In this document: one piece after another, positions 22,846 to 41,414 of the stretch | Layout: each line of letters opens with the position of its first letter | Position numbering within the stretch: position 1 is the first letter of the stretch | Assembly: GCA_037431425.1 (NCBI GenBank) | Contig: GCA_037431425.1_4129.1 | Length of the DNA stretch: 64,000 nt | Origin: a phage | Direction: 5' to 3' (one strand) | The notes under the pieces: model-generated | Told to the model about the DNA's origin: nothing | The model's database searches: none | Seen by the model: the letters and a program-made list of their open reading frames with translations, nothing else | Program-made: the position numbers and the translations under genes

Positions 22846-23634
22846 ATGTGCACTATAGATGAACTGATTCGACGGAATTCAAAATATTACAAACCATCAG
22901 AAATTGTAGATAACATTACTAAATCAGAGTTCGGACCAAATACACGAAAACTAATTCATGTAATGTTACGTGATGGCTTTAAATGTGATTGTTGTGGTGA
23001 ATCCAATGTGGTATTCACTTTACATAAGCACAGTACTAAAGAACGTTATAAATTCAGACCTTATGTACTTAAAGGGAAACGCCTTGTACGCATGACGTTA
23101 GACCATAATGTACTGGACTGTCTTCAGGGCGGTAATGATAAAGAAAACATGACTGCACTGTGTGAGGATTGCAATGCATTACGCCAGCATAAATTTGCTG
23201 AGTACAGCGAGTTTAAGTTCTGGTATCATAATGCAGATCGTTCTATTGAACCTGACGTTAACTACTGCTTTATCGAGTACATTAAGAATGCAAAAGATAC
23301 ATACATTCTTAAATCTATGGAACCAATTACCGTGTTTCCAATGAACCTATACACTACATTAAAGAATAGTTTTATGGTAGGTGATATTGATGCATTCAAG
23401 TATTTTGACAAAGGTGCAAAACATTTTGAAGTTCAATGTCTTAGTACTGCACTATGTGAACTTATTAAAATTTACATAAAAGATTATTTGGGTATTGACA
23501 ATGTACGCGTACCAGAGTATACTTTTTCTATTGATTTCGATTGTGAATCAATCAAAGAGTTTGGGATTCTTTTCAATAAACAAATAGAACTTGCAATTCA
23601 AAACGAAATCAAGTACTATAATACTAACATTTAA
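22846..23634 (+). CDS. HNH endonuclease-like protein
   Basis: Track ORF; CxxC pair and LDHNVLDCLQGGNDKENMTALCEDCNALRQH fit the HNH motif. Confidence 0.6.
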   Translation: MCTIDELIRRNSKYYKPSEIVDNITKSEFGPNTRKLIHVMLRDGFKCDCCGESNVVFTLHKHSTKERYKFRPYVLKGKRLVRMTLDHNVLDCLQGGNDKENMTALCEDCNALRQHKFAEYSEFKFWYHNADRSIEPDVNYCFIEYIKNAKDTYILKSMEPITVFPMNLYTTLKNSFMVGDIDAFKYFDKGAKHFEVQCLSTALCELIKIYIKDYLGIDNVRVPEYTFSIDFDCESIKEFGILFNKQIELAIQNEIKYYNTNI

Positions 23635-23649
23635 TCAGAGGAAATTATT

Positions 23650-23832
23650 ATGCAAATCATCATTCTTATCGTAGGTATCATTCTTGGTGTATATGGTCAC
23701 TCCTGGATGAACGAGAAGTTCCCTAATACCCGTCCTGAGTATTGCAGTACGAATGTATACCAGAATGGTGAGAAACCAAAGGAAAGTATTGGTAAAAAGC
23801 TGGACAAAGTACTTGACGTTATCAACGAATAA
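23650..23832 (+). CDS. hypothetical small membrane protein
   Basis: Track ORF; SD gagga upstream. Confidence 0.5.
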   Translation: MQIIILIVGIILGVYGHSWMNEKFPNTRPEYCSTNVYQNGEKPKESIGKKLDKVLDVINE

Positions 23833-23841
23833 GGGTAAAGT

Positions 23842-24042
23842 ATGTTTAAATCAAATACAAATGTTGGTAAGAAGGTTAAATTACTTGAGGATGTATCCAC
23901 CTTGAGTGGAATTTTCCCAAGAGGTCACATCATGACTATTATTGCAGAAACATCCCGTGGGTGGGATTTGGAAGATGCTGATGGTAATCGCATCCTTGAG
24001 GCTGGATTCTATGGTCATCGTGAATATAAAATCATTGATTAA
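23842..24042 (+). CDS. hypothetical small protein
   Basis: Track ORF. Confidence 0.5.
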   Translation: MFKSNTNVGKKVKLLEDVSTLSGIFPRGHIMTIIAETSRGWDLEDADGNRILEAGFYGHREYKIID

Positions 24043-24051
24043 GGATGTAAC

Positions 24052-24135
24052 ATGACTTTAGAGATTGTCTTTGGTATTGTTAGCTTAGTCGTCTGTGTGG
24101 GTTGGTTTGGGTATCTGATGATTTTTGGTGATTAA
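24052..24135 (+). CDS. hydrophobic peptide (27 aa), tentative
   Basis: Manually found; SD aaggatg; entirely hydrophobic. Confidence 0.3.
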   Translation: MTLEIVFGIVSLVVCVGWFGYLMIFGD

Positions 24136-24138
24136 TAC

Positions 24139-24166
24139 TTGACATAAGATATCAGTACTGTATAAT
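24139..24166 (+). promoter_or_regulatory. sigma70-type promoter (TTGACA-N16-TATAAT)
   Basis: Consensus; CAGTACTG immediately upstream of -10. Confidence 0.7.
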
Positions 24167-24259
24167 GTTTATATCAAAGGGAATGCAGTGAAAGGAAAGA
24201 CAGCATAATCGTACTCGTCACTGTGTTCCTTTACTTTTAAATTAAATGAGGAATTAACT

Positions 24260-24568
24260 ATGTTTCAAACTAACACTCAAGGTTTTGTAATCATTGATTT
24301 GAATCAAAACAGCGGTAATTGGATGAAACCTACTGACGCATGTATGCAGTTTGATTTCTTAGGTTACAGAATTAGTGTAAGCACTGGTGCTTCTGTACTG
24401 AGGGGTGGTTGTATTGTTGAACATCTGGTAACTGATCCAGAAGGTCGTGAGTATGAAATCGCAGGTTCAGTACAAGATGCCATTATGTTTGTATGTCAGC
24501 GTGAAATGAATGGTTCGAATTCAAATGCACTGACTCATGCTCTTTCTCAAGAAGTGGAGATTCGTTAA
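24260..24568 (+). CDS. hypothetical protein
   Basis: Track ORF downstream of promoter 24139..24166; SD gagga. Confidence 0.6.
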   Translation: MFQTNTQGFVIIDLNQNSGNWMKPTDACMQFDFLGYRISVSTGASVLRGGCIVEHLVTDPEGREYEIAGSVQDAIMFVCQREMNGSNSNALTHALSQEVEIR

Positions 24569-24819
24569 TGAAATACATTGTAGCAGTACTCGTCGCATTT
24601 TTACTCACTGCATGTGATGCTTCAACCAAAGAACGCACAAGTGATTTTATTCTCCCGACTGAATTAAAAGAAGCCGGATGTAAGATTTATCGTATGCAAA
24701 AGGACGGTGCTGATGTAACCTTGTATACAGTTTATTGCCCTAATGCAAATACCAGTACTGGATACACTAGCGGTAAAACACGAGTCAATACTTCAGTGAT
24801 TAATGGAGTACAACAATGA
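24568..24819 (+). CDS. putative lipoprotein
   Basis: Track ORF; N-terminus MKYIVAVLVAFLLTAC carries a lipobox-like LTAC. Confidence 0.55.
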   Translation: MKYIVAVLVAFLLTACDASTKERTSDFILPTELKEAGCKIYRMQKDGADVTLYTVYCPNANTSTGYTSGKTRVNTSVINGVQQ

Positions 24820-25184
24820 GCCTTGATACAACCCGTGCAACAGATTTATTAACTCGTCTGAATGATGAAGAATATCTTGCTGAAATAAAGTACAAGCTTG
24901 ACAAACTGGTTCGAAGTGCTGAAGTAATTGAAGTTGAAGGTCACTTACCAATGGATCAATTCCATACGTTCAACGAAGAGATGGTTTATTATCCTAATGA
25001 AATTTGGATTGAGTGGCAACATTGGACTGGTAAAACACTACGTATTGAAGGGTATTGTGTGAAGTATGAACGTGATCCTGGTTATGTGACAAAAACTTTG
25101 TCAATTTGGTGTACAAAAACACATGAACTCGTTGAGGTGAATTTGAATTATATGAATGGCTTCCGTTGGGGTGATGTTAAATGA
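24816..25184 (+). CDS. hypothetical protein
   Basis: Track ORF. Confidence 0.5.
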   Translation: MSLDTTRATDLLTRLNDEEYLAEIKYKLDKLVRSAEVIEVEGHLPMDQFHTFNEEMVYYPNEIWIEWQHWTGKTLRIEGYCVKYERDPGYVTKTLSIWCTKTHELVEVNLNYMNGFRWGDVK

Positions 25185-25456
25185 TTAAAAAACTCTTGAC
25201 GGTGTTCTTTGTATTCAGTACAATGTTTCTTACAGCATGTAACGATGACGGCAGGTTAAGTGCAAAAGACTTAGCTCGATTAGATTGTGCATACACAGGT
25301 AAGTCTTTTATTAACGAGTATGAGGTATGCACACAATCAGGTCGTATCTGTGGTGGTTGGGAGAAACGTCAGGAGCGATTGTATGTATATGAATGTCCTG
25401 GACAACTCAACAAAGTACTAAGCACACAAAAACTTGTTTATGATAAGGTTGAATAA
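25181..25456 (+). CDS. putative lipoprotein
   Basis: Track ORF; N-terminus MIKKLLTVFFVFSTMFLTAC carries a lipobox-like LTAC. Confidence 0.55.
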   Translation: MIKKLLTVFFVFSTMFLTACNDDGRLSAKDLARLDCAYTGKSFINEYEVCTQSGRICGGWEKRQERLYVYECPGQLNKVLSTQKLVYDKVE

Positions 25457-25671
25457 TGACTACTAATGAAATGATGCAGGTTATTTGGGATAAAGGTTGT
25501 GATATTAAAATCACTAGTACTGATGTTCGTGTATTCAAAACTGAATACCTGGAGTACTTGGACCTTGATACTTATAATAATATTGTATCAATTGAACATA
25601 AAGGTGCAGTACTTGAAACTATTGATGTGGTTCTGAAGAAAGCAACAGACCTATTAGGTGCGTCAGTGTGA
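25456..25671 (+). CDS. hypothetical small protein
   Basis: Track ORF. Confidence 0.5.
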   Translation: MTTNEMMQVIWDKGCDIKITSTDVRVFKTEYLEYLDLDTYNNIVSIEHKGAVLETIDVVLKKATDLLGASV

Positions 25672-25822
25672 ATAATAAAGAGTGGGAAGAATACCGAAAA
25701 AAATGCCGAGAGTTTGATAAAGAACTAACTGGTACTATTAATGCAGTAATGGGTGTATCTGTTTTTATTGCAGTTGTGTCATTATTTGCTGTTATTATTA
25801 ATAAATTTTTATAGGAACTCCC

Positions 25823-26020
25823 ATGTTTACTTTATATCTCGCAGTGGTTCTTACTAATGGTGAAATCACTCGTACTATTGGTGAAGGTGTATATAAAACG
25901 CCTGAGCAATGTTACTCTGCTACACATTGGCCTCGTGATAGTGATGATACTCGTACCGAATTTAAATGCATGAAAGTAAAAGGTGATTTTGTTAACCTTA
26001 AAGTTATTGAGGATAAATGA
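25823..26020 (+). CDS. hypothetical small protein
   Basis: Track ORF; SD aggaa. Confidence 0.5.
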   Translation: MFTLYLAVVLTNGEITRTIGEGVYKTPEQCYSATHWPRDSDDTRTEFKCMKVKGDFVNLKVIEDK

Positions 26021-26535
26021 TGAATATTAATGAGTTGTTAATATTATTGTTTAATCGTGGAAATGATGTAAGACGTACTATCTATCAAGACAAAATACAC
26101 ATTGAAACTGATAAATGTTATGGTAAAACAACTCATGAGATTTTAAAACCGAACGGTAAACGATATGCCGACGTATGTTTTCATGAAAGAAGTGATGGTA
26201 GTGACATAATCAGTACTGATATTGTGTTTTATGCTAGATCATCGGCAGAATCGTATGAAATCGAACTTGTATATTGCCCTAGTTCAAAAGCACACAATAA
26301 GCGTCAGATATTGTATGATGTTTATTCACCACCAGGTGTAGCTGAACATTTTGTTATCGATTACAGTACTGAAGAAAGTGTGTTTCAACAGAGTTTGATT
26401 CATAACTTCCAGTTGAACGATCCAAATGTACCAAAGATGTTCAAACTACTCGATGTAATTGATGTTGATTTTGAATTTGTTATGTGCATCAGAACTTCTT
26501 TAATCGATGAATTTATGGAATTACTTAATATATGA
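26017..26535 (+). CDS. hypothetical protein
   Basis: Track ORF. Confidence 0.5.
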   Translation: MMNINELLILLFNRGNDVRRTIYQDKIHIETDKCYGKTTHEILKPNGKRYADVCFHERSDGSDIISTDIVFYARSSAESYEIELVYCPSSKAHNKRQILYDVYSPPGVAEHFVIDYSTEESVFQQSLIHNFQLNDPNVPKMFKLLDVIDVDFEFVMCIRTSLIDEFMELLNI

Positions 26536-26753
26536 ATCGTTACTACATTGTTTATGAGCATGTATCTGAGTTTAATAATATACGTGGATATAAGAAAGAA
26601 GTTCAGAAGATTGATGTATTTGTACATGCTTTTAATCCTACTCATGCACTAATGAAACTGTTTGATGAAGTAACTAAGTACAACACACCAAAAACACAAC
26701 GCTATGTTGGAACTGTACATAGTGTAATGCTTACTGAATATGATGGAGAATGA
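26532..26753 (+). CDS. hypothetical small protein
   Basis: Track ORF. Confidence 0.5.
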   Translation: MNRYYIVYEHVSEFNNIRGYKKEVQKIDVFVHAFNPTHALMKLFDEVTKYNTPKTQRYVGTVHSVMLTEYDGE

Positions 26754-26756
26754 CAA

Positions 26757-26975
26757 ATGAATTTATATCTTGTTGAAGGGTCAGTGCAAGTGTGCACCGT
26801 AGATGGTGAAGGTTATCGCTTTTCACATGTAGAAGATTTTAAGTACGTTGTACATGCGGAAGGTCAGTATGACGCAGAAATTCAGGTTAAAGAATCATTC
26901 CGTAATAAGAATGCCATTGGAAAATTCAAATACCAGAACTTACAATTCATTGTATGGCCCAGCATTAATGACTAA
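26757..26975 (+). CDS. hypothetical small protein
   Basis: Track ORF. Confidence 0.5.
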   Translation: MNLYLVEGSVQVCTVDGEGYRFSHVEDFKYVVHAEGQYDAEIQVKESFRNKNAIGKFKYQNLQFIVWPSIND

Positions 26976-26976
26976 G

Positions 26977-27183
26977 ATGTGGTGGTGTCATGGTGTCTAC
27001 AATGTCTATGAATATGGTAGATTCAAAATGAGCAGTACATATGCCAGACGTGTAAATGCGAAAAACCAAGTTGATGCTGCTTGTGAGATTGTAGAGTGGT
27101 ATGCAGAGTTCAATGCAATTGAATATATGTACGAAATAGTCACAATAAATGTTGTACAAATTGACACTTCTTTGATACAATAA
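26977..27183 (+). CDS. hypothetical small protein
   Basis: Track ORF 26848..27183; ATG 26977 right after upstream stop is preferred. Confidence 0.4.
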   Translation: MWWCHGVYNVYEYGRFKMSSTYARRVNAKNQVDAACEIVEWYAEFNAIEYMYEIVTINVVQIDTSLIQ

Positions 27184-27214
27184 CTTTATCAAAACAACTT
27201 CATCTGAGGATTTT

Positions 27215-27877
27215 ATGTTAGTAAATCTCAACTTTATCACTTCTCCTGATTGGGCATTGCGTGGTGTTTCTTTGAACTTTAAAGAAACTCATTTTGAACA
27301 CATTGGTGATTGTACTTTAGTTAATGCTACATTTGATCCACATCATCCTTTTTGGGCTAAAATTCACGATCCAAATGTAAACAATAGTACATCAGTCATG
27401 ACTATTGTTCAAACGAAACATCCTGGTATTCTTGCAGGCTACCGTCCTGAACATGCAATTGAACACTTCACTGATTACGATGTGGTTGATGAATATCCAA
27501 TGATCCATAAAGATGGAAGTTTATACACATCTGAAGACGTTCGTGCTATCTTTAATAGTACTGATGATATTCTACCAAGTGGACGAGCACGTCCTAAGTC
27601 TTATCTTATGCATTCATCTTATGGTGTAGCAGACACACTTGAGCAGATTATGAAGAAGTTCAAGAACCTAATTGAAGGTCCAGAAGAAATTGTTTTATGC
27701 TATCATCCAGTACTGAAATCTGACCAACCAGAGAGTGGTGGGTGGCGTTGGCATAAGAATGGTGAGTACATCGGAACTAAGCGTAGTAAAGAACGCTTTG
27801 AGTACTTGTATGATGAGCCAGATGTTGATGTTGTTTTGTGTTATAATTTTCTTAAGGTGAAAAAGAAATGTATCTAG
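27215..27877 (+). CDS. hypothetical protein (220 aa)
   Basis: Track ORF; SD gagga. Confidence 0.6.
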   Translation: MLVNLNFITSPDWALRGVSLNFKETHFEHIGDCTLVNATFDPHHPFWAKIHDPNVNNSTSVMTIVQTKHPGILAGYRPEHAIEHFTDYDVVDEYPMIHKDGSLYTSEDVRAIFNSTDDILPSGRARPKSYLMHSSYGVADTLEQIMKKFKNLIEGPEEIVLCYHPVLKSDQPESGGWRWHKNGEYIGTKRSKERFEYLYDEPDVDVVLCYNFLKVKKKCI

Positions 27878-28110
27878 TATTGAATTTTGTAGTTGTGTTT
27901 TTGTTTATGTTATATCCTACACTTGTAGCATTAGCCACTAAACGAACATGGACACACATTATTACTGTTTTCTTTCTTAACGTTGTTCTTGTATTTGTGT
28001 CTATTATTATTCCAATAAGCTTTACATATACTGACATTGTATTTGTATTACTCTTTGTGTTCAGTTATCTTATGCTCATTGATGAAAATAATATTGACAA
28101 ACGTTCTTAG
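27868..28110 (+). CDS. hypothetical membrane protein
   Basis: Track ORF; two hydrophobic helices. Confidence 0.5.
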   Translation: MYLVLNFVVVFLFMLYPTLVALATKRTWTHIITVFFLNVVLVFVSIIIPISFTYTDIVFVLLFVFSYLMLIDENNIDKRS

Positions 28111-28121
28111 AACTGTATAAT
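28094..28121 (+). promoter_or_regulatory. sigma70-type promoter (TTGACA-N16-TATAAT)
   Basis: Consensus hexamers with extended TG. Confidence 0.65.
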
Positions 28122-28164
28122 AGTTACTGTAGTTTAAAAACACTTTATTTTGAGGATATGAAAT

Positions 28165-28485
28165 ATGTTATCAGTATTGTTTTCGATTCCATCCCTAGTT
28201 CTGATTTGGCTTATTGTTTACGAATTCTTTATCACTGATGTTAATGATAAAAAAGAGTTTGTACAGTTGTTTCTGCTAGATTCACCGATTGTCCGAATTT
28301 ATTATACTATCGTTTGTGTTTCAGTACTTGTATGGATTGTGAGTTTTATTTTTCCATTGGGATCATTAGTATATACATTGAATTTTATGGAAAATGTAGT
28401 GGCTATTCTATGGCTAATTGCAGCATGGTATGCAGGTAATGTTAGTATTTGGATTGATATTTTAAAATCTAAATTCACAAAATAA
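28165..28485 (+). CDS. hypothetical membrane protein
   Basis: Track ORF downstream of promoter 28094..28121; SD gagga. Confidence 0.55.
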   Translation: MLSVLFSIPSLVLIWLIVYEFFITDVNDKKEFVQLFLLDSPIVRIYYTIVCVSVLVWIVSFIFPLGSLVYTLNFMENVVAILWLIAAWYAGNVSIWIDILKSKFTK

Positions 28486-28568
28486 TATTTAATAGTAAAA
28501 AAATACCCCTATGATATTAAATACTTGTATACTATATGTACAAATGTATTTTTCTATAGGGGTTTGTT

Positions 28569-28928
28569 ATGGGTAGATATATAAAATTAATAGCATTTGC
28601 TTGCTTATTATTTTCATGTTTTAGTTATGGTTCGTCATCTGTAACACAATGTCGTAGTTCGAATGGAACTATATATTCATTGACAAACGATCCGAATAAT
28701 GGTAAAAACATTGTTATCAATGGTGTAACTTATCGTGTTAAAGCTCAGAGTACCATCGGTAATAAAAAGATAACGACTTATGTAAATGATTCTGGAACAA
28801 TTGCGAATGTTATATTAATCGTTAACCCAATAACAGGTAATGGTGATATCTATATTGTGATTTATTTGGATACAGCATTACAACGAGAACTAAATTTGGA
28901 TGAATTAAATCTGCACTGCAAAATATAG
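28569..28928 (+). CDS. putative secreted protein
   Basis: Track ORF; signal-peptide-like N-terminus. Confidence 0.5.
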   Translation: MGRYIKLIAFACLLFSCFSYGSSSVTQCRSSNGTIYSLTNDPNNGKNIVINGVTYRVKAQSTIGNKKITTYVNDSGTIANVILIVNPITGNGDIYIVIYLDTALQRELNLDELNLHCKI

Positions 28929-28938
28929 GATATAATAT

Positions 28939-29316
28939 ATGCTCAATTCTATTGTGATTTGGTTTTTAAGTATTCCAATTATTTTATCTTTTGTAATTTC
29001 TATTTGTATGATTTTATATTTTATTTTTGCTGGGGTGTATTTTATTTTTACAAACAAAGATATTTTTATTTCTAAACTTGATTCTATATTTGCTTGTGAG
29101 TCGTTAGCTTATAATTTGTGGATAATTTGTTCTTGTATCATGGGTATGGCATTCCTACTACACGAATTTAATGTCATTGATGATAATGTTGTATATATTA
29201 GTACTGGGTTAGCATTATATCCAGCTACATGGTACTTGATTTATGTTGTCGATATATGGTATAGTACTTACAAAGAATACCAGTGTAAAAAGTCATCAAA
29301 AGTTGAGAGGAAATGA
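28939..29316 (+). CDS. hypothetical multi-pass membrane protein
   Basis: Track ORF. Confidence 0.5.
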   Translation: MLNSIVIWFLSIPIILSFVISICMILYFIFAGVYFIFTNKDIFISKLDSIFACESLAYNLWIICSCIMGMAFLLHEFNVIDDNVVYISTGLALYPATWYLIYVVDIWYSTYKEYQCKKSSKVERK

Positions 29317-29669: not shown

Positions 29670-29674
29670 ATTTT

Positions 29675-34694: not shown

Positions 34695-34757
34695 CAGAAC
34701 TTTAATACTGTTATATTATTTAAAAATGATAAACGAATTGCATCTAAGGGTAAAATC

Positions 34758-35039: not shown

Positions 35040-35040
35040 A

Positions 35041-35379
35041 ATGGAACAATATTTTGAATTAATTAATAAAGTGTCATTCTATGTAGTGTCATTGACGTGG
35101 GTTTATTTCATGTTTTGCTACATTATTGCATTCTTCCGATATACTACTTTATATGAACGTATCTATTATGATGCACCAATTTCATTCTTGGTGTTCTGTG
35201 CATGTACGTGGGGAATATTAGAAGTACTGATATGTGGATATAGAACTGATGAATTAAATCTGGTATCGGTATTGACTGGGTTATCACTTGGTGTTATGAT
35301 ATCTTTCTTTCCAGTATGGTTGTTCTTTGAACTGATCCATCGCATTGATGTATGGCGTTCTAATATCCCTGAAAAATAA
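35041..35379 (+). CDS. small two-helix membrane protein, RxxIPE family, copy A1
   Basis: Track ORF; hydrophobic segments; C-terminal WRSNIPEK. Confidence 0.55.
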   Translation: MEQYFELINKVSFYVVSLTWVYFMFCYIIAFFRYTTLYERIYYDAPISFLVFCACTWGILEVLICGYRTDELNLVSVLTGLSLGVMISFFPVWLFFELIHRIDVWRSNIPEK

Positions 35380-35388
35380 GGATTGATA

Positions 35389-35730
35389 ATGATTTTCTAT
35401 ACTAATGCGTTTGCTTATGCTATTGCATCAATCTACATTGTGTACTTCTTATTTGGTGGAGTACTGTACTTCTTTAAGTACAAAACATTGTTTAACCGAA
35501 TGTATCCAAATCACCCAATTGTAGTAGTACTTTTGATAATTTCTGTTGCTCATATCATTGTAGAAACAATAATGGGTATCAGTGCAGTACATTACAGTCT
35601 AGGTACTATTGTAATTATTACTATGATCATAGCATACATTTTAGTAATGGGTTCTGGTTTATTTGGGAATGTAGCAATGAAAATGTATAATCGAATCAAA
35701 ACATTACGTGATAATCTACCGGAGCGTTGA
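35389..35730 (+). CDS. small two-helix membrane protein, RxxIPE family, copy A2
   Basis: Track ORF 35383..35730; ATG 35389 after aagga; C-terminal LRDNLPER. Confidence 0.55.
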   Translation: MIFYTNAFAYAIASIYIVYFLFGGVLYFFKYKTLFNRMYPNHPIVVVLLIISVAHIIVETIMGISAVHYSLGTIVIITMIIAYILVMGSGLFGNVAMKMYNRIKTLRDNLPER

Positions 35731-35731
35731 G

Positions 35732-36076
35732 TTGTATAATTTAAATTTAATATCATATATCATAACAACAATGTTTACTTTCTATGCCTTTGTTGGTATA
35801 ATCCTACTGTACTTTAAATTTTATAAAGTCTTTGACCGTTTATTTCCATCATTGGAACATGAATTCTTAGTGGTGATGTACATATGTTTAACGTGTATGT
35901 CTACATTTTTCACTGTATTTGATGGTATCATCGGTATTAAAGCTGAAGATCCAAATGGAAGTACACTTGTTGCCTTTATCCTGGTAGGATTCTTCGGCAC
36001 TTATATCACTTTCATTTCAACATGGTCTGTGGTTGATTATCTCATTAGATTACGAGATAAAATGCCAAATCGATAG
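35732..36076 (+). CDS. small two-helix membrane protein, RxxIPE family, copy A3
   Basis: Track ORF 35708..36076; TTG start at 35732 inferred from paralog alignment and ggag SD; C-terminal LRDKMPNR. Confidence 0.45.
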   Translation: MYNLNLISYIITTMFTFYAFVGIILLYFKFYKVFDRLFPSLEHEFLVVMYICLTCMSTFFTVFDGIIGIKAEDPNGSTLVAFILVGFFGTYITFISTWSVVDYLIRLRDKMPNR

Positions 36077-36085
36077 GGGATTGCT

Positions 36086-36343
36086 ATGTTTGCATTGCGT
36101 AATAAAAATACAAAAGAGATTCTATGTATCTCAGCAGTATGGGATTGTGCAGGAAGTGAAATGATCCTCGAAGAAGGTTCAGGTGATTGTGTTTATGTTG
36201 TTCAGGATCGTCGTGAACTTGAATCATTACTTGATGAATTTAATGCTGGTGGTAATCCTAAAAGTACTGAATTCCCTGTGATTATTAATCCAGCACCACC
36301 TGGTTCTTATGAAATTCTACAACTGTGGGAGATGGATAAGTAA
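36086..36343 (+). CDS. hypothetical small protein
   Basis: Track ORF. Confidence 0.5.
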   Translation: MFALRNKNTKEILCISAVWDCAGSEMILEEGSGDCVYVVQDRRELESLLDEFNAGGNPKSTEFPVIINPAPPGSYEILQLWEMDK

Positions 36344-36723
36344 TGCGTCAAATGTACAAAGTAACCGAGCTAAACAAGCGTCTGATTAAACAATCAATGT
36401 TCGAGGACAAAGAGTCTTATTATAACTTTAAACGTGCTGTAGAGGCTGCTATCCATATCCAGAAGCTTAAAGATAGTGGTTGTATTATTCTCGAAAATGG
36501 TTCTGATGTTGTAACGGATGACTTTAGTGTAGCGTTTGATGTTTCACCAGATGGTATACTATCAATGCCACGATTAGGAACTGGAAACATGACTGTTTGG
36601 GTCGGCTTCACTATGGGTAATGTACCAGACACGGTGTATGTAGATGATATTGAGTTGAAAGAAAGCTTCAAAAACTTATCTTATCTTGAACCACAATACG
36701 CACATGAAATGAATTTATTTTGA
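36343..36723 (+). CDS. hypothetical protein
   Basis: Track ORF; ATGA-type overlap. Confidence 0.5.
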   Translation: MRQMYKVTELNKRLIKQSMFEDKESYYNFKRAVEAAIHIQKLKDSGCIILENGSDVVTDDFSVAFDVSPDGILSMPRLGTGNMTVWVGFTMGNVPDTVYVDDIELKESFKNLSYLEPQYAHEMNLF

Positions 36724-36724
36724 G

Positions 36725-36752
36725 TTGACAAACAGATTTAGTACTGTATAAT
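36725..36752 (+). promoter_or_regulatory. sigma70-type promoter (TTGACA-N16-TATAAT)
   Basis: Consensus; TAGTACTG immediately upstream of -10. Confidence 0.7.
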
Positions 36753-36799
36753 GTTTACCAACGGGATGAATTTCCCATCCCTACTATCGAGGAATTACC

Positions 36800-37354
36800 A
36801 TGATTACTTTTAAGAAAACAGCTAACCATATCCATGAAATTTACATTAACGGTCATAAAGCTGGGCTTCTTCGCTTACTGGCACATCATCCTAATGTAGA
36901 CGTATCTGATAATGAACCTAAAGATTGGCGTGTCTTTTTCTTTGGAAAGTACAGTGATTTTCAAGTATCAAATCTGAAGAAGATTCGTTCAGTATGCACG
37001 TTAACTGAAATTAAAGAAAAGTTAGCAGAAGCACTGAAAACCAATCCAGATGGAATCCTTCCTCCTGATAACTTTGTAGATAAAGGTTATGCTTTAGCTC
37101 ATTTCAAAGATGGTACTATTCAATCTATTAGTACTGAATATGAATATCAATGGACTGAGTACTTCACTTATGGCTCACCTAATACATTGATGGCTTCACG
37201 TAGTAAATTGGAAGAAGTACTGACACGTATTAATGAACGCGAGCGTCAGTTCTATGACAAACCAGAAATGTGGAGTTCAACTCACATTGACCGTATTGAC
37301 TATGTTATTATGACTCCAATCTTTAACACTGCTTACTATGATTCTTTGAAATAA
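36800..37354 (+). CDS. hypothetical protein
   Basis: Track ORF downstream of promoter 36725..36752; SD gaggaa. Confidence 0.6.
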   Translation: MITFKKTANHIHEIYINGHKAGLLRLLAHHPNVDVSDNEPKDWRVFFFGKYSDFQVSNLKKIRSVCTLTEIKEKLAEALKTNPDGILPPDNFVDKGYALAHFKDGTIQSISTEYEYQWTEYFTYGSPNTLMASRSKLEEVLTRINERERQFYDKPEMWSSTHIDRIDYVIMTPIFNTAYYDSLK

Positions 37355-37365
37355 GGATAACTTAT

Positions 37366-37542
37366 ATGAAACTACGTACTCGTAATCGCCTGATGGATGC
37401 ACTGTACCATGAACAGTATTCATTAAATGAAGTAAAGAGACAGTTAATGTATACATATCAGTTACCTGCCCGTGCTGCGAAACAACGTGCTAAAGAATTA
37501 CTGAAAGAAGCTATCGAGTACTGGGAGTCTGATTCGTATTAA
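37366..37542 (+). CDS. hypothetical small protein (58 aa)
   Basis: Manually found; SD aaggata upstream. Confidence 0.4.
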   Translation: MKLRTRNRLMDALYHEQYSLNEVKRQLMYTYQLPARAAKQRAKELLKEAIEYWESDSY

Positions 37543-37581
37543 TATTACGTGATATGTCACATTAATTAAGTGAGACGATAA

Positions 37582-37833
37582 ATGAAAATTTTATTAGTTC
37601 TAATACTACTAATTGTTTTACCATTTACTTTAGTATCTCCTGAACTTGCATGGAATGTGTTTGTGTACTTGGTATGTACTATTGCGGTAAATGGTATCTT
37701 GTTCTTAGTTCTATTCATAAATGGAATAGGACACGGTGGTGGATGGACCAGTACTGCTAATATTGTACATAAAACCACTATGTCTTTATTTGTAGTGTGG
37801 AATTTATTCTGGACTTGGTTTGTGTTCTTCTAA
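37582..37833 (+). CDS. hypothetical membrane protein
   Basis: Track ORF; hydrophobic throughout. Confidence 0.5.
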   Translation: MKILLVLILLIVLPFTLVSPELAWNVFVYLVCTIAVNGILFLVLFINGIGHGGGWTSTANIVHKTTMSLFVVWNLFWTWFVFF

Positions 37834-37841
37834 TTAAAAAT

Positions 37842-38213
37842 ATGAATATAGATTTGAAAGGTTCAACACGAACTGTTATCCTTATTGGTGATTATGCTAT
37901 TAAGATTCCAACCTTTAAAAGTTGGAAGTTATTCCTAACTGGAATGATAGCGAACCTCAATGAACGTTCATGGATGCAGTACTCCAATCGTAGTGATAGT
38001 GGAATATCCCCTACGCTGTGGTCCTCTCGTACTGGTTTAATAACAATACAGAAACGTTGTAAACCTGTACAACATAGGGGTTTATTTTGGGTTGAGTTGT
38101 GTGCGTTGGCATCAAAATCAGAGTTGAATACTGACTTCTTCTATTCAGATGCGAAGCCAGAAAACTTTGGGTATCTGTGTGGTAAGTTGGTTAAACTTGA
38201 TTATGGAGATTAA
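37842..38213 (+). CDS. putative small protein kinase-like protein
   Basis: Track ORF 37797..38213 trimmed to ATG 37842; SDAKPENFG...LVKLDYGD resembles a kinase catalytic loop plus DFG; IGDYAIKIP is VAIK-like. Confidence 0.5.
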   Translation: MNIDLKGSTRTVILIGDYAIKIPTFKSWKLFLTGMIANLNERSWMQYSNRSDSGISPTLWSSRTGLITIQKRCKPVQHRGLFWVELCALASKSELNTDFFYSDAKPENFGYLCGKLVKLDYGD

Positions 38214-38214
38214 T

Positions 38215-38484
38215 ATGTACGCATTGTATAATAAAGAAAAGAAACGATTTGCTAAGGTTGAAATTTCGATTGATACATTTGACATGTTGGAGTACTGTAT
38301 TGTAACGGATTTATATGCTAACTTGTATTACGTTCTTGATGACGTATCAGTACTGCAACGATTGCTTGAGAATTCCAAAAGTCAATGCCAGGGCATCTAT
38401 GATGGTTCATCTTATGAAACACCTGAGTGTTCCTACGGCTATCTGGACGGGTATGAGATTGTGAAGTTGGGGATTGTTGAATAA
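38215..38484 (+). CDS. hypothetical small protein
   Basis: Track ORF 38149..38484; ATG 38215 after ggagatt is preferred. Confidence 0.45.
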   Translation: MYALYNKEKKRFAKVEISIDTFDMLEYCIVTDLYANLYYVLDDVSVLQRLLENSKSQCQGIYDGSSYETPECSYGYLDGYEIVKLGIVE

Positions 38485-38496
38485 ATGGATTAAACA

Positions 38497-38910
38497 ATGA
38501 AGAAGTGTATCACGTGTAATATTGAAAAAGACATTAGTGAATTTGGTATAAGAAAAGATACTGGGAAACATAGAAATACATGCAAAGGTTGTAGTAATAT
38601 TACCAGTAAGAAAACCAGAAATAAAAAAACTGATGTCAAAAAACTTGAAGAAATCAAAAGAAAAAATAAAGATTTCATGTCCAGAGTTAAATCATTTTAT
38701 GGTTGTAGTATTTGTATGATGAAGTATCCAGAATGTTTAGACTTTCATCATCTTGATCCGAATATCAAAGAACATACACCAAGTTCTATGTTCAGTAAAA
38801 GTCGAGATGCTATCAAAGATGAAATTCGAAAGTGTATGATTCTTTGTTCTAATCATCATCGCATGGTCCATTCTGGAAGACTATGCTTAATTGAAAGAAA
38901 AAAGGGTTGA
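38497..38910 (+). CDS. HNH endonuclease-like protein (homing-endonuclease-like)
   Basis: Track ORF; CxxC...CxxC and DFHHLDP...CSNHHRMVH fit an HNH/zinc-finger motif. Confidence 0.6.
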   Translation: MKKCITCNIEKDISEFGIRKDTGKHRNTCKGCSNITSKKTRNKKTDVKKLEEIKRKNKDFMSRVKSFYGCSICMMKYPECLDFHHLDPNIKEHTPSSMFSKSRDAIKDEIRKCMILCSNHHRMVHSGRLCLIERKKG

Positions 38911-38936
38911 CTTCTGTCAGCCCTTTTTGCTATAAT
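38904..38936 (+). promoter_or_regulatory. PeSL-like module 4
   Basis: GGGTTGACTTCTGTCAGCCC + T5 + GCTATAAT; downstream roughly 25 bp identical to module 6. Confidence 0.65.
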
Positions 38937-38966
38937 CATTTCATCGAAGCTTGAGGATATTAAAAA

Positions 38967-39449
38967 ATGAACTACTTAGATTTGATTAACTCATATGTAA
39001 TTAGCCCATATATTAACGATGAAAGTATTAAATGTGTAGTATCAGTTGAGGATCACCCAACTGGTGCATTAAAACTATTTGGTGCAGGTCAAATTAACAA
39101 CCGCAACGGGTATACATTTGAATATTTACCATCAAGTGATAAGTTTGGATGTTATGACCACGAAACAAATAAGGGATATATTTGGGGAACACACTTAAGT
39201 ATTGCACAATCTTCGCTTTTCGAAGACCATAATGGGTATATGTGGCGATATTTAGGTGCAGTACTGCTTGATATCGCCCGTAGGTATAAGAAGTGTATAA
39301 CATTAACTTATACTCATACAAATGAATATAAAAACGAAGTTCAAGTTATTGATGAGGATTTTTTTAAAAATATTCCTTATATTGATTTTAACTGTCAAAA
39401 TGGTTATGCTACATACCCAGCAAGTTTTGAAGGTGAAAGATACTTTTAA
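38967..39449 (+). CDS. hypothetical protein
   Basis: Track ORF downstream of PeSL-like promoter; SD gagga. Confidence 0.6.
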   Translation: MNYLDLINSYVISPYINDESIKCVVSVEDHPTGALKLFGAGQINNRNGYTFEYLPSSDKFGCYDHETNKGYIWGTHLSIAQSSLFEDHNGYMWRYLGAVLLDIARRYKKCITLTYTHTNEYKNEVQVIDEDFFKNIPYIDFNCQNGYATYPASFEGERYF

Positions 39450-39541
39450 AAAGAGTTGATTTAAAATGTATAAGTGATATACTTATCATATCAAGACGAA
39501 ACAACAACCAACATGTAAACGCTACTAATTAGGAGACACAC

Positions 39542-39952
39542 ATGATCAACAAACATTTCGCAGTTTCCAAAACTGTAACCATCGATAATGAATGGGAAAT
39601 TACCATTCTAAATGATACGGCTCGTGGACTACTGGCAGAGAATATTCTCCAGAAGTATATTGACTGTGAATCTGAGTTGATCATTCATGAACGCACTAAA
39701 TTTCTTCTAATTGGTGGAAAGAAATGTAAAGTTCTGGTATTCACCGACAAAATGACTCGTGCAGATATCATTACTAAATTGGTTAGTTCTTCACGTCATC
39801 GTCCGGGTGTTAATAGATCAATTGATGAGATTAAAGAAATGAAGCCAGGTGATTTATTCATTGTTGCAGGGTTTGATTCAAAAACAAGAAAAATGAGTAT
39901 TTCAGAAATGTATACTAATGCTGAAATGCGTAACAAATTCTTTTCTAACTAA
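39542..39952 (+). CDS. hypothetical protein
   Basis: Track ORF; SD aggaga. Confidence 0.55.
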   Translation: MINKHFAVSKTVTIDNEWEITILNDTARGLLAENILQKYIDCESELIIHERTKFLLIGGKKCKVLVFTDKMTRADIITKLVSSSRHRPGVNRSIDEIKEMKPGDLFIVAGFDSKTRKMSISEMYTNAEMRNKFFSN

Positions 39953-39987
39953 TCAACCCATGTAGTGTAATCTTATACACATTTTAG

Positions 39988-41205
39988 ATGGATAAAAATA
40001 TGATCTTCGAAACTGAAAAAACATTACTTGAAACTTACACTTTGGATAATCTAGTTAAACTTAACCTTGAACGACCAGATATCCAACGCAATTGGCAATG
40101 GAAAAATAATAACCAAAACAATCTTATTATTTCCATTCTAAAGAATTCTCCAATTGGTCAATTTTTAGTATGGAATGAAACTAGTTCAAATACGATGTAC
40201 ATCACTGATGGTCGTCATCGCTATACAGTAATTTCAAACTTCATGAACAATAAATTCCCAGTCACTGTTAGAACTGAAGATGGGACTAAGGATTATTATT
40301 ATGGTTCTGATGATCCAGTAGAAGAAGAAAGCATTTCACTGAAACTTGGTGGAAAGCGTAAAACATGGGATTTTTTATCTAAAGAAGAGCGTGATGCTTT
40401 TCGTGCAAAGGAAGTATCAGTAACATTCGTTCATACAGACGATGCTGAAAAGATTTCAGATATGTTTATTGCAATTAATACTGCATCATCTAATCTATGT
40501 AAAGTTGATTTGTTAGTATGTAAGCACCACACAAATACATATATGAAACGTATTGATAAGCTATTTTCAATTGAGTTTGGCAAAGATGAACCCATGGCAG
40601 CATTAGTGAGTGATTTTTACCGTGCAATCGGTCATTGTTGTGTTAATGGTAATCATGAGAAACACTTATCGAAGCTTAAAGCTAACCCTAAAGTACAGAA
40701 GCGTGAATTTTTTGAAATGTTCTTTATGGTCAAAGCGTTCGCGAAATTATGTGCTAGTGCACTAGATGGTAAGCTAAACTCATACCGTATGCCAAAGATG
40801 AACCAACAAATTGAAGAAGCAATTATTAGTACTGAATCTCTTAGTGAGAAACATGCTGATGCTGATTTTGTTCAGTTTGTTAATGCAGTTCGTGAGATGA
40901 ATTTGGTATCACCTGTAAAATCTGCACAAAAATTTCAATTTATCCATGAAGATATGAAGAATACCTTTAATAAGAGACTCTTTTGTATTTTGATGGGATT
41001 GTTTTATGCTTATGGTACAAGATTGCCATTACATTTTCGTGATGTATGGGGTGACATTTATAATGAAATGTCAGAAAAAAGTTCAGAACTACCTACTAAT
41101 GGAACCGATAGTCCTTCCGCAATTTTAGCTGGCATTGAAATGATTGAACCATACTTTAGTTCAGCATTTAATAATATTCCATTGAGTGCTTACGTGGGAA
41201 AGTGA
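39988..41205 (+). CDS. DUF262/ParB-like nuclease-domain protein (GmrSD N-terminal-like)
   Basis: N-terminal PDIQRNWQW and DGRHR motifs resemble the DUF262 signature (QR..W and DGQQR); stop overlaps the GTG start of the next HNH ORF. Confidence 0.6.
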   Translation: MDKNMIFETEKTLLETYTLDNLVKLNLERPDIQRNWQWKNNNQNNLIISILKNSPIGQFLVWNETSSNTMYITDGRHRYTVISNFMNNKFPVTVRTEDGTKDYYYGSDDPVEEESISLKLGGKRKTWDFLSKEERDAFRAKEVSVTFVHTDDAEKISDMFIAINTASSNLCKVDLLVCKHHTNTYMKRIDKLFSIEFGKDEPMAALVSDFYRAIGHCCVNGNHEKHLSKLKANPKVQKREFFEMFFMVKAFAKLCASALDGKLNSYRMPKMNQQIEEAIISTESLSEKHADADFVQFVNAVREMNLVSPVKSAQKFQFIHEDMKNTFNKRLFCILMGLFYAYGTRLPLHFRDVWGDIYNEMSEKSSELPTNGTDSPSAILAGIEMIEPYFSSAFNNIPLSAYVGK

Positions 41206-41414
41206 AAAAACGTGGTGTACTAAATACACCACAAAAACAATATCTTTTGAAAAGATATTCTTTGTGTTATCTTTGTGGACAGAAGATATCGGATTCAGAT
41301 ATACTACATTTTGACCATGTTCAATCATTAAAAGATGGTGGTAGTAATGAATTAAGTAATATACGACCAACGCACTCCATTTGTAATTTACGTAAAGGTG
41401 CTAAGAGTATGTAA
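41202..41414 (+). CDS. small HNH endonuclease
   Basis: CxxC followed by HFDHVQSLKDGGSNELSNIRPTHSICNLRKG (HNH); GTGA overlap with upstream stop suggests translational coupling. Confidence 0.65.
   Translation: MKKRGVLNTPQKQYLLKRYSLCYLCGQKISDSDILHFDHVQSLKDGGSNELSNIRPTHSICNLRKGAKSM

What the first reader, a model, noticed from the sequence alone, without database searches (positions are those of the whole stretch)
22846..41414. Three HNH-type endonuclease genes
ORFs at 22846..23634, 38497..38910 and 41202..41414 all show Cys pairs plus HNH catalytic motifs. The first two are free-standing, as expected for homing endonucleases, and may mark sites of gene mobility; the third is coupled to the DUF262 protein.
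Basis: partly seen in the sequence, partly recalled or inferred. Interest (0 to 1): 0.4.

Follow-up and report, generated by a model that had tools for sequence, protein, structure and literature searches.

The report
Three phage HNH nucleases, one frameshift-fused
All three HNH nuclease ORFs are real in this jumbo coliphage: two are free-standing, come-and-go selfish-type nuclease genes, and the third is most likely joined to the upstream DUF262 protein by a conserved programmed -1 ribosomal frameshift that I found described in no paper and marked in none of the annotated records I inspected.

Summary
The window is an Asteriusvirus jumbo coliphage (121Q/PBECO4 group), about 98% identical to phage ph0011. 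All three ORFs exist at the stated coordinates and carry intact Cys-pair plus His-Me/HNH motifs.

- **HNH1 (22846-23634):** a lineage-specific nuclease. Its nuclease module is an in-frame indel relative to phage A4. Together with the upstream 76-aa ORF it is missing from four related records.
- **HNH2 (38497-38910):** a minimal Zn-ribbon plus HNH gene, inserted as about 413 nt between a small gene and a terminator/promoter element upstream of denV. It is present in 17 of 38 related records. Other records show an empty site, and WPEC5 keeps a degraded remnant. This is the pattern of a free-standing homing endonuclease gene, but cleavage is untested.
- **HNH3 (41202-41414):** probably not an independent gene. 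It lies in the -1 frame of the DUF262 gene, and a G_GGA_AAG slippery heptamer sits in frame at the end of that gene. The arrangement holds in 9 of 9 lineages, down to 22% protein identity. Several lineages have no usable start codon for the HNH frame. Single-ORF DUF262-HNH proteins of the same length are common.

The frameshift would give a 405-aa sensor-only protein and a 475-aa GmrSD-like nuclease. The gene sits beside an N6-adenine methyltransferase in a 3.4-kb island. The frameshift is the new result.

The parts
22614..22844 (+). 76-aa ORF that is present or absent together with HNH1
   Evidence: EC22.5-2, Turkey5 and JNE01 lack window 22605-23611 as one block. ECO103 4-12-1 shows the same match pattern. 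A4_183 is a 54%-identical homologue.
22846..23634 (+). HNH1: 262-aa HNH (H-N-N) nuclease. The N-terminal nuclease module is about residues 5-180; the C-terminal domain of about 82 aa has no assigned function.
   Evidence: phrog_35175 E 8e-181 and Pfam HNH E 0.017. Equivalent to 121Q gp170. Present in 31 related records. A4_184 equals MSTI plus residues 182-262. N-term is 90% and C-term 45% identical to allele P0155.
38215..38484 (+). Conserved small gene (121Q gp216 homologue) forming the left border of the HNH2 site
   Evidence: phrog_8563. 97-99.6% identical in all relatives compared.
38485..38897 (+). HNH2 insert of about 413 nt relative to the empty site of 121Q and SP27
   Evidence: The gap between gp216 and denV is 67 nt (empty), 480 nt (HNH2) or 154 nt (remnant).
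38497..38910 (+). HNH2: 137-aa Zn-ribbon plus HNH free-standing endonuclease. Its last four codons and stop are supplied by resident intergenic sequence.
   Evidence: phrog_2255 E 1.9e-31. At least 80% identical copies in 17 phage records, and about 40% relatives in FelixO1-like phages. Invariant motif residues.
38904..38945 (+). PeSL-like composite terminator hairpin plus sigma70 promoter (TTGACT-18-TATAAT); left boundary repeat of the island
38967..39449 (+). 160-aa island ORF, no family match
   Evidence: No hit in Pfam, PHROGs, PADLOC or NCBIfam. 81% homologue in L017.
39542..39952 (+). 136-aa ORF conserved immediately upstream of the DUF262 gene
   Evidence: Homologues in L012, L014, L017 (76-90%), L022 (E 1.8e-13 to the window ORF) and GAP32 gp517 (2e-6).
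39988..41205 (+). ParB-DUF262 plus NsnA-like middle-domain protein (405 aa); the zero-frame product
   Evidence: Pfam GmrSD_N E 8.6e-18. PADLOC NsnA 2.6e-15. Q33-R34-W38 and D74-G75-R78 are invariant. PDB profile hits to BrxU and SspE.
41196..41202 (+). G_GGA_AAG -1 slippery heptamer in the zero frame, immediately before the TGA stop
   Evidence: Occurs once per gene, in frame, at the 3' end, in 9 of 9 lineages. The heptamer is highly shift-prone in E. coli (PMC5009743).
41212..41232 (+). 8-bp hairpin 9 nt downstream of the heptamer (candidate frameshift stimulator)
   Evidence: -11.3 kcal/mol, z -3.55. Two compensatory pairs in L017.
41202..41414 (+). HNH3: -1 frame extension of the DUF262 gene, encoding a PF01844 HNH domain. 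Predicted fusion product is 39988-41202 joined to 41202-41411 (475 aa).
   Evidence: Pfam HNH 1.1e-11. Conserved at 46-68% in all related loci but unannotated in ph0011 and GAP32. 41 of the top 150 representative hits are single-ORF DUF262-HNH proteins.
41464..42300 (+). Gamma-type N6-adenine DNA methyltransferase (DQYYT, EPCVGTGSF, NPPF motifs)
   Evidence: PADLOC MTase_II 5.7e-34. phrog_5172. 69% identical to GAP32 gp519.
42308..42350 (+). PeSL-like terminator/promoter; right boundary repeat of the 3404-nt island
42369..42872 (+). denV (pyrimidine-dimer glycosylase); conserved right border of the variable junction
   Evidence: Pfam Pyr_excise 1.8e-15 and phrog_1183.

Best explanation
The three ORFs are three different things in an Asteriusvirus jumbo coliphage.

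(1) HNH1 is a lineage-specific HNH nuclease. Its nuclease module (about residues 5-180) is joined in frame to a small C-terminal domain that exists on its own in phage A4. With the upstream 76-aa ORF it forms an accessory cassette that some relatives lack. It is most likely a selfish, homing-type nuclease that is now nearly fixed.

(2) HNH2 is a minimal free-standing Zn-ribbon/HNH homing-type endonuclease gene. It is inserted between a conserved small gene and the terminator/promoter element upstream of denV. Relatives show empty, full and decayed states of the same site.

(3) HNH3 is the nuclease domain of a GmrSD-like enzyme and is reached by a programmed -1 ribosomal frameshift. Ribosomes translating the DUF262 gene slip on G_GGA_AAG just before the stop codon and continue into the HNH frame. 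This gives a 405-aa DUF262 sensor/NTPase-only protein and a 475-aa DUF262-HNH nuclease in a fixed ratio.

The gene lies with a conserved 136-aa ORF and an N6-adenine methyltransferase in a 3.4-kb island bounded by two copies of the terminator/promoter repeat.

Inferred, not shown: the island acts as a restriction-modification-like weapon. The methyltransferase would mark the phage's own DNA, and the nuclease would attack host or competitor DNA.
For: Identity of the phage and the variable junction.

HNH motifs and family hits.

HNH1 indel, domain deletion in A4 and mosaic alleles.

HNH2:
- Clean insert with the stop codon borrowed from the resident -35 hairpin.
- 17 of 38 records carry it.
- Empty 67 nt, full 480 nt, remnant 154 nt.
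- The fEgEco12 paper lists Gp520 and Gp570 as absent from Ecwhy_1 (PMC13070987).

Frameshift:
- HNH is in the -1 frame, and G_GGA_AAG is in frame 0-6 codons before the stop in 9 of 9 lineages with 22-100% DUF262 identity.
- The heptamer occurs exactly once per gene. The synonymous-codon chance is 0.003-0.036 per lineage, even granting a conserved G-K peptide.
- There is no ATG, GTG or TTG before the CxxC in L023 and L024. In L012, L014, L022, GAP32 and L027 only internal starts exist.
- Peptide conservation starts at the slip site.
- 41 of the top 150 representative hits are single-ORF DUF262-HNH proteins, mostly 405-480 aa and collinear with the fusion.
- The AF2 fusion model places the slip site in a low-pLDDT linker before a high-confidence HNH domain. 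BrxU is the top PDB fold match and the top PDB sequence match.
- 3' hairpins at 4-9 nt are present in four lineages, with two compensatory pairs between the window and L017.
- G_GGA_AAG is highly shift-prone in E. coli (PMC5009743).

Island boundaries and single strong promoter.
Against: - No protein-level or ribosome-profiling evidence exists for the fusion.
- In the window, ph0011 and L017 a GTG overlaps the stop (GTGA), so independent or coupled initiation is possible there. Some gene callers call a 70-aa ORF.
- A downstream hairpin is not universal: none in the GAP32 clade (L027), weak in L012 and L014.
- Homing by HNH1 or HNH2 is untested, and the flank co-conversion signal is weak.
- HNH1 is in 31 of about 38 records and has relatives in other jumbo-phage genera. 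This also fits a domesticated function.
- HNH2 does not reach any Pfam threshold, and its profile-profile match to the HNH family is weak (probability 10%).
- The R-M-like role of the island is inference only. L024 and probably L022 lack an adjacent methyltransferase.
Confidence: 0.78

Rival explanations
1. HNH3 is a separate small subunit. It would be translated from its own GTG by stop-start coupling (GTGA overlap), giving a two-protein DUF262 plus HNH system with no frameshift.
For: A GTG at 41202 overlaps the TGA of DUF262. Gene callers call a 70-aa HNH ORF in L018-L021. Split sensor/effector systems with DUF262 exist, e.g. Menshen (PMC12065111).
Against: L023 and L024 have no start codon in the HNH frame. 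L012, L014, L022, GAP32 and L027 have only internal ones that would remove conserved residues. The in-frame G_GGA_AAG is conserved in 9 of 9 lineages where the surrounding sequence is not. No Shine-Dalgarno at a proper distance is evident in the sequence. Single-ORF fused relatives are the norm.
Confidence: 0.1
2. The DUF262/HNH split is a decaying gene, broken by a frameshift mutation in a once-fused gene, and HNH3 is not expressed.
For: Fused single-ORF relatives exist. ph0011 and GAP32 annotators saw no gene there.
Against: The same split at the same heptamer is kept in 9 lineages as far apart as 22% identity. The HNH frame is open and the catalytic C/D-H/N/H-C-N residues are intact in all of them. 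A random indel would not recur at a canonical slippery site.
Confidence: 0.03
3. HNH1, and less probably HNH2, are domesticated phage nucleases with a role in the phage's own cycle rather than active homing endonucleases. Possible roles are host DNA degradation, packaging or recombination. The indels would reflect ordinary accessory-gene flux through the terminator/promoter repeats.
For: HNH1 is at the same locus in 31 records, and its nuclease domain has homologues in Mimasvirus, Eneladusvirus and other jumbo phages. PeSL-type repeats are known to shuffle genes without any nuclease (PMC2839356, PMC4122927). No clear co-conversion tract was found.
Against: HNH2 shows the full homing-gene life cycle: empty, intact and degraded. 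It is patchy across both HNH1-allele clades. The HNH1 nuclease module is 90% conserved across alleles whose C-terminal part is only 45% identical, which suggests the module moved or was converted horizontally. The HNH2 family is the multi-copy free-standing HNH family of FelixO1-like phages.
Confidence: 0.25

Closest known systems
GmrSD-family Type IV restriction enzymes (GmrSD, BrxU, SspE)
   Same: N-terminal ParB-like DUF262 NTPase/sensor with QR and DGxxR motifs, then a helical DNA-binding middle domain, then a C-terminal His-Me finger nuclease on one polypeptide. BrxU (7p9k) is the top hit by sequence profile (5e-12) and by fold (probability 0.97).
   Different: The nuclease is a classical PF01844 HNH, not DUF1524. 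It is reached only by a -1 frameshift. The gene is phage-borne and sits next to an N6A methyltransferase. Dependence on DNA modification is unknown. The whole-chain TM-score to BrxU is low (0.19).
Programmed -1 frameshifting that makes two products from one gene (lambda G/GT tail chaperones, dnaX tau/gamma)
   Same: An X_XXY_YYZ heptamer: G_GGA_AAG, listed as highly shift-prone in E. coli (PMC5009743). From my own knowledge it is also the lambda G-T site. The result is a short product and a C-terminally extended product at a fixed ratio, and most lineages tested have a 3' hairpin.
   Different: The gene class is a defence-type nuclease. In most lineages the stop codon directly abuts the heptamer. 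I found no report of recoding in DUF262 or HNH genes in the searchable literature.
Free-standing homing endonuclease genes of T4-like and FelixO1-like phages (Seg, Mob and HNH families)
   Same: Small intergenic nuclease ORFs with sporadic presence among close relatives at a fixed site, and degraded copies. The HNH2 family has about 40%-identical members in FelixO1-like phages.
   Different: No cleavage site or biased inheritance has been demonstrated. HNH1 is close to fixed in the genus.
PeSL composite promoter-terminator cassettes of T4-type phages
   Same: A GC-rich terminator hairpin overlaps the -35 box of a strong sigma70-type early promoter. It is repeated between genes and lies at the boundaries of indels (PMC2839356, PMC4122927).
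   Different: Found here in an Asteriusvirus (RaK2-like jumbo phage), not a T4-like phage. The sequence is its own family. The role in recombination is inferred from position only.
Menshen NsnA / PD-T4-2 DUF262 proteins
   Same: The best PADLOC hit is NsnA, nearly full length (2.6e-15). It covers ParB-DUF262 plus a ParBDB-like helical domain.
   Different: No NsnB ABC-ATPase or NsnC effector gene is adjacent. The effector is the frameshift-fused HNH.

Membership tests
HNH / His-Me finger nucleases (Pfam PF01844 and clan) | Profile match above the curated threshold | tested here: met
   HNH3: PF01844 45.2 bits against 21.4.
HNH / His-Me finger nucleases (Pfam PF01844 and clan) | Profile match above the curated threshold, for HNH1 and HNH2 | tested here: inconclusive
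   HNH1: 15.7 bits against 21.4. HNH2: HNH_2 13.2 bits against 21. Both match PHROG HNH families strongly (8e-181; 1.9e-31). The HNH1 homologue GAP32 gp520 passes Pfam. hhalign of HNH2 to the HNH family gives only 10% probability.
HNH / His-Me finger nucleases (Pfam PF01844 and clan) | Conserved catalytic His (general base), Asn and metal ligand, framed by Cys pairs | tested here: met
   The residues are invariant in each family alignment.
Free-standing homing endonuclease gene | Stand-alone ORF between conserved genes, sporadically present at the same site among close relatives | tested here: met
   HNH2: 17 of 38 records, with empty, full and remnant states. HNH1 plus ORF76: absent in EC22.5-2, Turkey5 and JNE01, with ECO103 4-12-1 showing the same match pattern. 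The nuclease domain is absent in A4.
Free-standing homing endonuclease gene | Cleaves the endonuclease-less allele near the insertion site and is over-inherited with co-conversion of flanks | not testable with these tools
   Only an indirect test was possible. Flank identity is raised next to HNH2 in fEgEco12 and WPEC5 but not in JP4 or WPEC3, so it is inconclusive.
GmrSD family (Type IV restriction) | N-terminal DUF262 (PF03235) with nucleotide-binding motifs | tested here: met
   GmrSD_N E 8.6e-18. Q33, R34, W38, D74, G75 and R78 are conserved.
GmrSD family (Type IV restriction) | C-terminal DUF1524 nuclease domain in the same ORF | tested here: not met
   No DUF1524 hit. The nuclease is PF01844 HNH in the -1 frame. 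It works like GmrSD in architecture but is not filed as a member.
GmrSD family (Type IV restriction) | Cleavage dependent on modified DNA | not testable with these tools
   Needs biochemistry.
Programmed -1 ribosomal frameshift | X_XXY_YYZ heptamer in the zero frame within the overlap, conserved beyond what the protein requires | tested here: met
   G_GGA_AAG in 9 of 9 lineages, once per gene. Chance per lineage is 0.003-0.036.
Programmed -1 ribosomal frameshift | The downstream frame lacks independent initiation, and its conservation starts at the slip site | tested here: met
   No start in L023 or L024. Only internal starts in five lineages. A GTG is present in the window clade.
Programmed -1 ribosomal frameshift | 3' stimulatory RNA structure 5-9 nt downstream | tested here: inconclusive
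   Hairpins in the window, L017, L023 and L024 (z -2.6 to -4.9), with two compensatory pairs between the window and L017. Weak in L012 and absent in L027.
Programmed -1 ribosomal frameshift | Trans-frame protein observed | not testable with these tools
   Needs western blot or mass spectrometry.
Menshen (NsnABC) | NsnA followed by the NsnB ABC-ATPase and the NsnC effector | tested here: not met
   The neighbours are a 136-aa ORF, HNH and a methyltransferase.
PeSL promoter-terminator cassette | Terminator hairpin overlapping the -35 of a consensus early promoter, repeated at indel borders | tested here: met
   Six copies in the window. Three have 11 of 12 promoter matches plus TG. They lie at the borders of the island and of denV. 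Function not tested.

The most novel reading that the evidence does not exclude
The conserved -1 frameshift may be a stoichiometry device. It would build a hetero-oligomeric, GmrSD-like enzyme from nuclease-less and nuclease-bearing DUF262 subunits. Together with its methyltransferase and the 136-aa partner this would form a phage-borne, selfish R-M-like or gene-drive module, used against host DNA or co-infecting phages. It would spread between jumbo phages with neighbouring homing HNH genes: HNH2-like and HNH1-like genes flank the same module in GAP32.
Probability: 0.3. Interest if true: 0.75.

Novelty: new variant of a known kind. Interest (0 to 1): 0.6.

Why it matters
HNH1 and HNH2 are ordinary in themselves. 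Homologues are already labelled 'HNH endonuclease' in GenBank. They do provide a clean natural series for studying homing in jumbo phages: empty, full, degraded, and full plus cargo.

The frameshift matters more.
- It adds a defence-type nuclease to the short list of bacterial and phage genes that use programmed -1 recoding.
- It explains why the HNH domain is left out of the ph0011 and GAP32 annotations and of the gene calls on several metagenome contigs, so DUF262 'sensor-only' proteins in phages may be mis-read.
- It gives a directly testable case where the ratio of sensor-only to sensor-nuclease protein is hard-wired.
- It shows a GmrSD-like enzyme paired with a methyltransferase on a phage, which reverses the usual host-defence picture.

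Tried and rejected
- IMG/VR scans with three DUF262 proteins found no usable loci.
- Rfam found only tRNAs in the window.
- PADLOC gave nothing for HNH1, HNH2 or the 160-aa and 136-aa ORFs. NCBIfam gave only sub-threshold IscB-HNH and DGQHR hits.
- The AF2 model of HNH1 from a 4-sequence alignment was poor (pLDDT 57), and its fold search was uninformative. The C-terminal domain of HNH1 remains unassigned.
- PDB sequence searches with HNH1 and HNH2 found nothing.
- hhalign of the HNH2 family against the DUF262-HNH family aligned the right motif but with only 10% probability.
- Transcriptional slippage was rejected as the way the frames are joined. There is no homopolymer run before the stop, and the A6 run lies after it.
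- Sequencing error was rejected because the split recurs in independent isolates and assemblies.
- Flank identity as a co-conversion test gave mixed results.
- Literature searches for recoding in DUF262, GmrSD or HNH genes found nothing relevant.

Full report
**Context.** The window is 33% G+C with nearly all genes on the + strand. It is about 98% identical to Escherichia phage ph0011, genus Asteriusvirus, the 121Q/PBECO4 group of roughly 350-kb jumbo phages. The finding spans part of a long run of small early-type genes.

**Observation.**
- ORFs of 262, 137 and 70 aa lie exactly at the stated coordinates.
- HNH3 passes Pfam HNH (45.2 bits against 21.4).
- HNH1 and HNH2 fall below the Pfam thresholds (E 0.017 and 0.084). 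Both match PHROG families annotated as HNH endonuclease (phrog_35175, 8e-181, full length; phrog_2255, 1.9e-31).
- The HNH1 homologue in GAP32 passes Pfam HNH.
- Each family alignment keeps the Cys pairs and the D/H-H, N and C/H-N residues invariant.
- A profile and regex scan of all 549 stop-to-stop ORFs found no fourth HNH gene.

**HNH1 (22846-23634).**
- tblastn finds it at the same locus in 31 related records. These fall into two allele classes, 93-98% and 75-77% identical to the window copy, plus Ecwhy_1 (89%), which is cut at the end of its record. Only the nuclease domain has relatives (28-42%) in other jumbo-phage genera.
- EC22.5-2, Turkey5 and JNE01 lack window 22605-23611 as one block. 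That block is the 76-aa ORF plus HNH1. In its place they have a 56-75 nt spacer carrying a TTGACA-17-TATAAT-like promoter. ECO103 4-12-1 shows the same match pattern as EC22.5-2.
- Phage A4 keeps the 76-aa homologue. In place of HNH1 it has an 87-aa ORF that equals MSTI plus residues 182-262 of HNH1. The nuclease module (about residues 5-180) is therefore an in-frame indel.
- Between the window allele and allele P0155, the nuclease part is 90% identical and the C-terminal part only 45%. P0155's C-terminal part is 90% identical to the A4 gene. So the nuclease module is shared across diverged resident alleles. This fits horizontal movement or gene conversion of the module.
- The function of the C-terminal domain stayed unresolved. 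The AF2 model had pLDDT 57 and its fold search was uninformative.

**HNH2 (38497-38910).**
- The junction between the 121Q gp216 homologue (38215-38484) and denV (42369-42872) exists in four states:
  - empty, 67 nt (121Q, SP27);
  - HNH2 only, 480 nt (fEgEco12, WPEC3, JP4);
  - a 154-nt remnant keeping only nt 334-414 of HNH2 (WPEC5, isolated on the same host strain as WPEC3);
  - HNH2 plus a 3404-nt island, 3884 nt (window, ph0011).
- The insert is about 413 nt. It starts right after the gp216 stop. Its last four codons and its TGA come from the resident sequence AGAAAAAAGGGTTGA, which is the start of the terminator hairpin and -35 box.
- Copies at least 80% identical occur in 17 of the 38 records that match this region. 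They are spread across both HNH1-allele clades. Relatives of about 40% identity are the free-standing HNH genes of FelixO1-like phages.
- The fEgEco12 paper independently lists Gp520 and Gp570, both annotated HNH endonucleases, as absent from Ecwhy_1 (PMC13070987). g570 is the HNH2 homologue.
- This is the expected pattern for a free-standing homing endonuclease gene, including decay. Cleavage and biased inheritance are untested.
- Flank identity is raised next to HNH2 in fEgEco12 and WPEC5 but not in JP4 or WPEC3, so that test is inconclusive.

**Boundary repeats.**
- The sequence GGGTTGACTTCGGTCAGCCCTTTTTGCTATAAT occurs after HNH2, before denV and after denV. It combines a terminator hairpin overlapping TTGACT, an 18-nt spacer and TATAAT.
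- These three copies are the three best promoter-like sites in 38000-43200. Six copies of the hairpin core occur in the window, against none expected by chance.
- The island is bounded by two copies.
- This is the anatomy of the PeSL cassettes that mediate gene shuffling in T4-type phages (PMC2839356, PMC4122927).
- No comparable promoter lies inside the island. The island genes therefore probably form one transcription unit (inference).

**HNH3 and the frameshift.**
- Position and annotation:
  - The 405-aa upstream protein is a ParB-DUF262 protein with an NsnA-like helical middle domain (Pfam GmrSD_N 8.6e-18, PADLOC NsnA 2.6e-15).
  - HNH3 lies in its -1 frame.
  - ph0011 and GAP32 leave the HNH stretch unannotated, as do the gene calls on several metagenome contigs.
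  - The stretch is nevertheless conserved at 63-68% in the 75-76% relatives and at 46% in GAP32.
- The slippery site:
  - The DUF262 gene ends ...GTG GGA AAG TGA, so G_GGA_AAG (41196-41202) sits in the zero frame directly before the stop.
  - The same in-frame heptamer, 0-6 codons before the stop and followed by HNH in the -1 frame, is present in nine lineages: the window/ph0011, L017 (87%), L012 (76%), L014 (75%), L022 (34%), L023 (29%), L024 (25%), GAP32 (22%) and L027 (61% to GAP32).
  - The heptamer occurs exactly once per gene. Even if the G-K peptide is constrained, the codon choice has a per-lineage chance of 0.003-0.036.
- Missing start codons:
  - L023 and L024 have no ATG, GTG or TTG in the HNH frame before the CxxC.
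  - Five other lineages have only internal starts that would remove conserved residues.
  - Only the window clade has a GTG, at 41202.
- The fused architecture:
  - A full HMMER search of 1.84 billion representatives with the 475-aa fusion found 41 single-ORF proteins among the top 150 hits.
  - These have DUF262 at the N-terminus and HNH at the C-terminus, collinear with the fusion, and most are 405-480 aa long.
  - The fused architecture is therefore the family norm.
- Structure:
  - An AF2 model (pLDDT 78, pTM 0.68) puts the slip site in a low-confidence linker ahead of a high-confidence HNH domain.
  - BrxU, a GmrSD-family enzyme, is the best PDB match by profile (5e-12) and by fold (probability 0.97).
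- Stimulatory elements:
  - An 8-bp hairpin begins 9 nt after the heptamer (z -3.55). L017 keeps it through two compensatory changes.
  - L023 and L024 have their own hairpins at 9 and 4 nt. The GAP32 clade has none.
  - G_GGA_AAG is listed as highly shift-prone in E. coli (PMC5009743).
- Conclusion: with about 0.85 confidence for this step, HNH3 is expressed as a trans-frame DUF262-HNH fusion alongside a DUF262-only product.

**The island.**
- Its gene order is a 160-aa ORF, a 136-aa ORF, DUF262(-1)HNH, then a methyltransferase.
- The 136-aa ORF is conserved upstream of DUF262 in L012, L014, L017 and L022 and in GAP32 (gp517).
- The methyltransferase has DQYYT, EPCVGTGSF and NPPF motifs, matches PADLOC MTase_II at 5.7e-34, and is 69% identical to GAP32 gp519. 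The DUF262 proteins of the same two phages share only 22%.
- Among the 'phages' collection only ph0011 and GAP32 carry the DUF262 gene.
- In GAP32 the module is flanked by an HNH2-like gene (gp516) and an HNH1-like gene (gp520).
- The working model is inferred, not shown. The module would be a phage-borne restriction-modification-like or competition system, with the frameshift setting the ratio of sensor-only to sensor-nuclease subunits. The neighbouring homing-type genes and PeSL repeats would provide mobility.

**Comparison and novelty.**
- HNH1 and HNH2 are new members of known kinds and are already labelled HNH endonuclease in several records.
- The DUF262-HNH protein works like GmrSD, BrxU and SspE in architecture. 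It fails the DUF1524 criterion, so I do not file it as a member. It also lacks Menshen's NsnB and NsnC partners.
- I found no report of programmed recoding in DUF262, GmrSD or HNH genes in the searchable literature. That search covers open-access papers and bioRxiv only.
- Overall this is a new variant of a known kind, of moderate to good interest, and directly testable.

Noticed in passing
window 22000-22313: This stretch lies in a gap of about 680 nt after the sigma-factor gene that ph0011 leaves unannotated. It is 67-77% identical at DNA level to mostly unannotated stretches of distant jumbo phages (Erwinia SNUABM, Yersinia Yen9-04, Xanthomonas XbC2, Serratia BF, Salmonella 7t3/Munch). Rfam finds nothing there. 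It could be an unannotated small gene or an RNA element.
   Followed up: partly
window 29862, 32656, 33994, 38906, 42310, 42881 (+ strand): Six copies of a PeSL-like composite terminator hairpin and sigma70 promoter (GTTGACTTCGGTCAGCC...TATAAT), with none expected by chance. They may mark the module boundaries of this hyperplastic region.
   Followed up: partly
window 14817-15971 (- strand): The window has an extra 1.1-kb minus-strand gene (384 aa, phrog_10468 virion structural protein) that ph0011 lacks at this position.
   Followed up: partly
window 8661-9053; ph0011 302154-302678 (L004 3855-4379): ph0011 carries a NUMOD4-HNH endonuclease gene and extra tRNAs inside the tRNA cluster. The window lacks them and has tRNA-Met and tRNA-Asn there. 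This is a further HNH presence/absence polymorphism in the genus.
   Followed up: partly
window 49925-51048 and 52410-53511: Relative to ph0011 the window has two additional units of about 1.1 kb in the minus-strand array of paralogous RCC1/WD40-like ('DNA condensation') genes.
   Followed up: no
L029 (WPEC3) 3106-4934; L028 (WPEC5) 2782-3659: In WPEC3 and WPEC5 denV is shortened (438 nt). It is followed by a 216-nt ORF and a gene annotated 'endonuclease', 1551 nt in WPEC3 and cut at the end of the fetched stretch in WPEC5. That gene has no Pfam domain. This is another variable insertion next to the same junction.
   Followed up: no
L011 (GAP32) 2345-6959: In Cronobacter phage GAP32 the DUF262(-1)HNH plus methyltransferase module is flanked by an HNH2-like gene (gp516) and an HNH1-like gene (gp520). 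All three HNH types of this window therefore cluster around one module in a different genus.
   Followed up: partly
L022 234-1487; L019 1-699: Large proteins with weak DUF723, CapR or DUF4379 hits lie near the DUF262 module, or in the same region, in two related contigs. Pfam re-scanning of the L022 protein gave nothing at E up to 0.01.
   Followed up: partly
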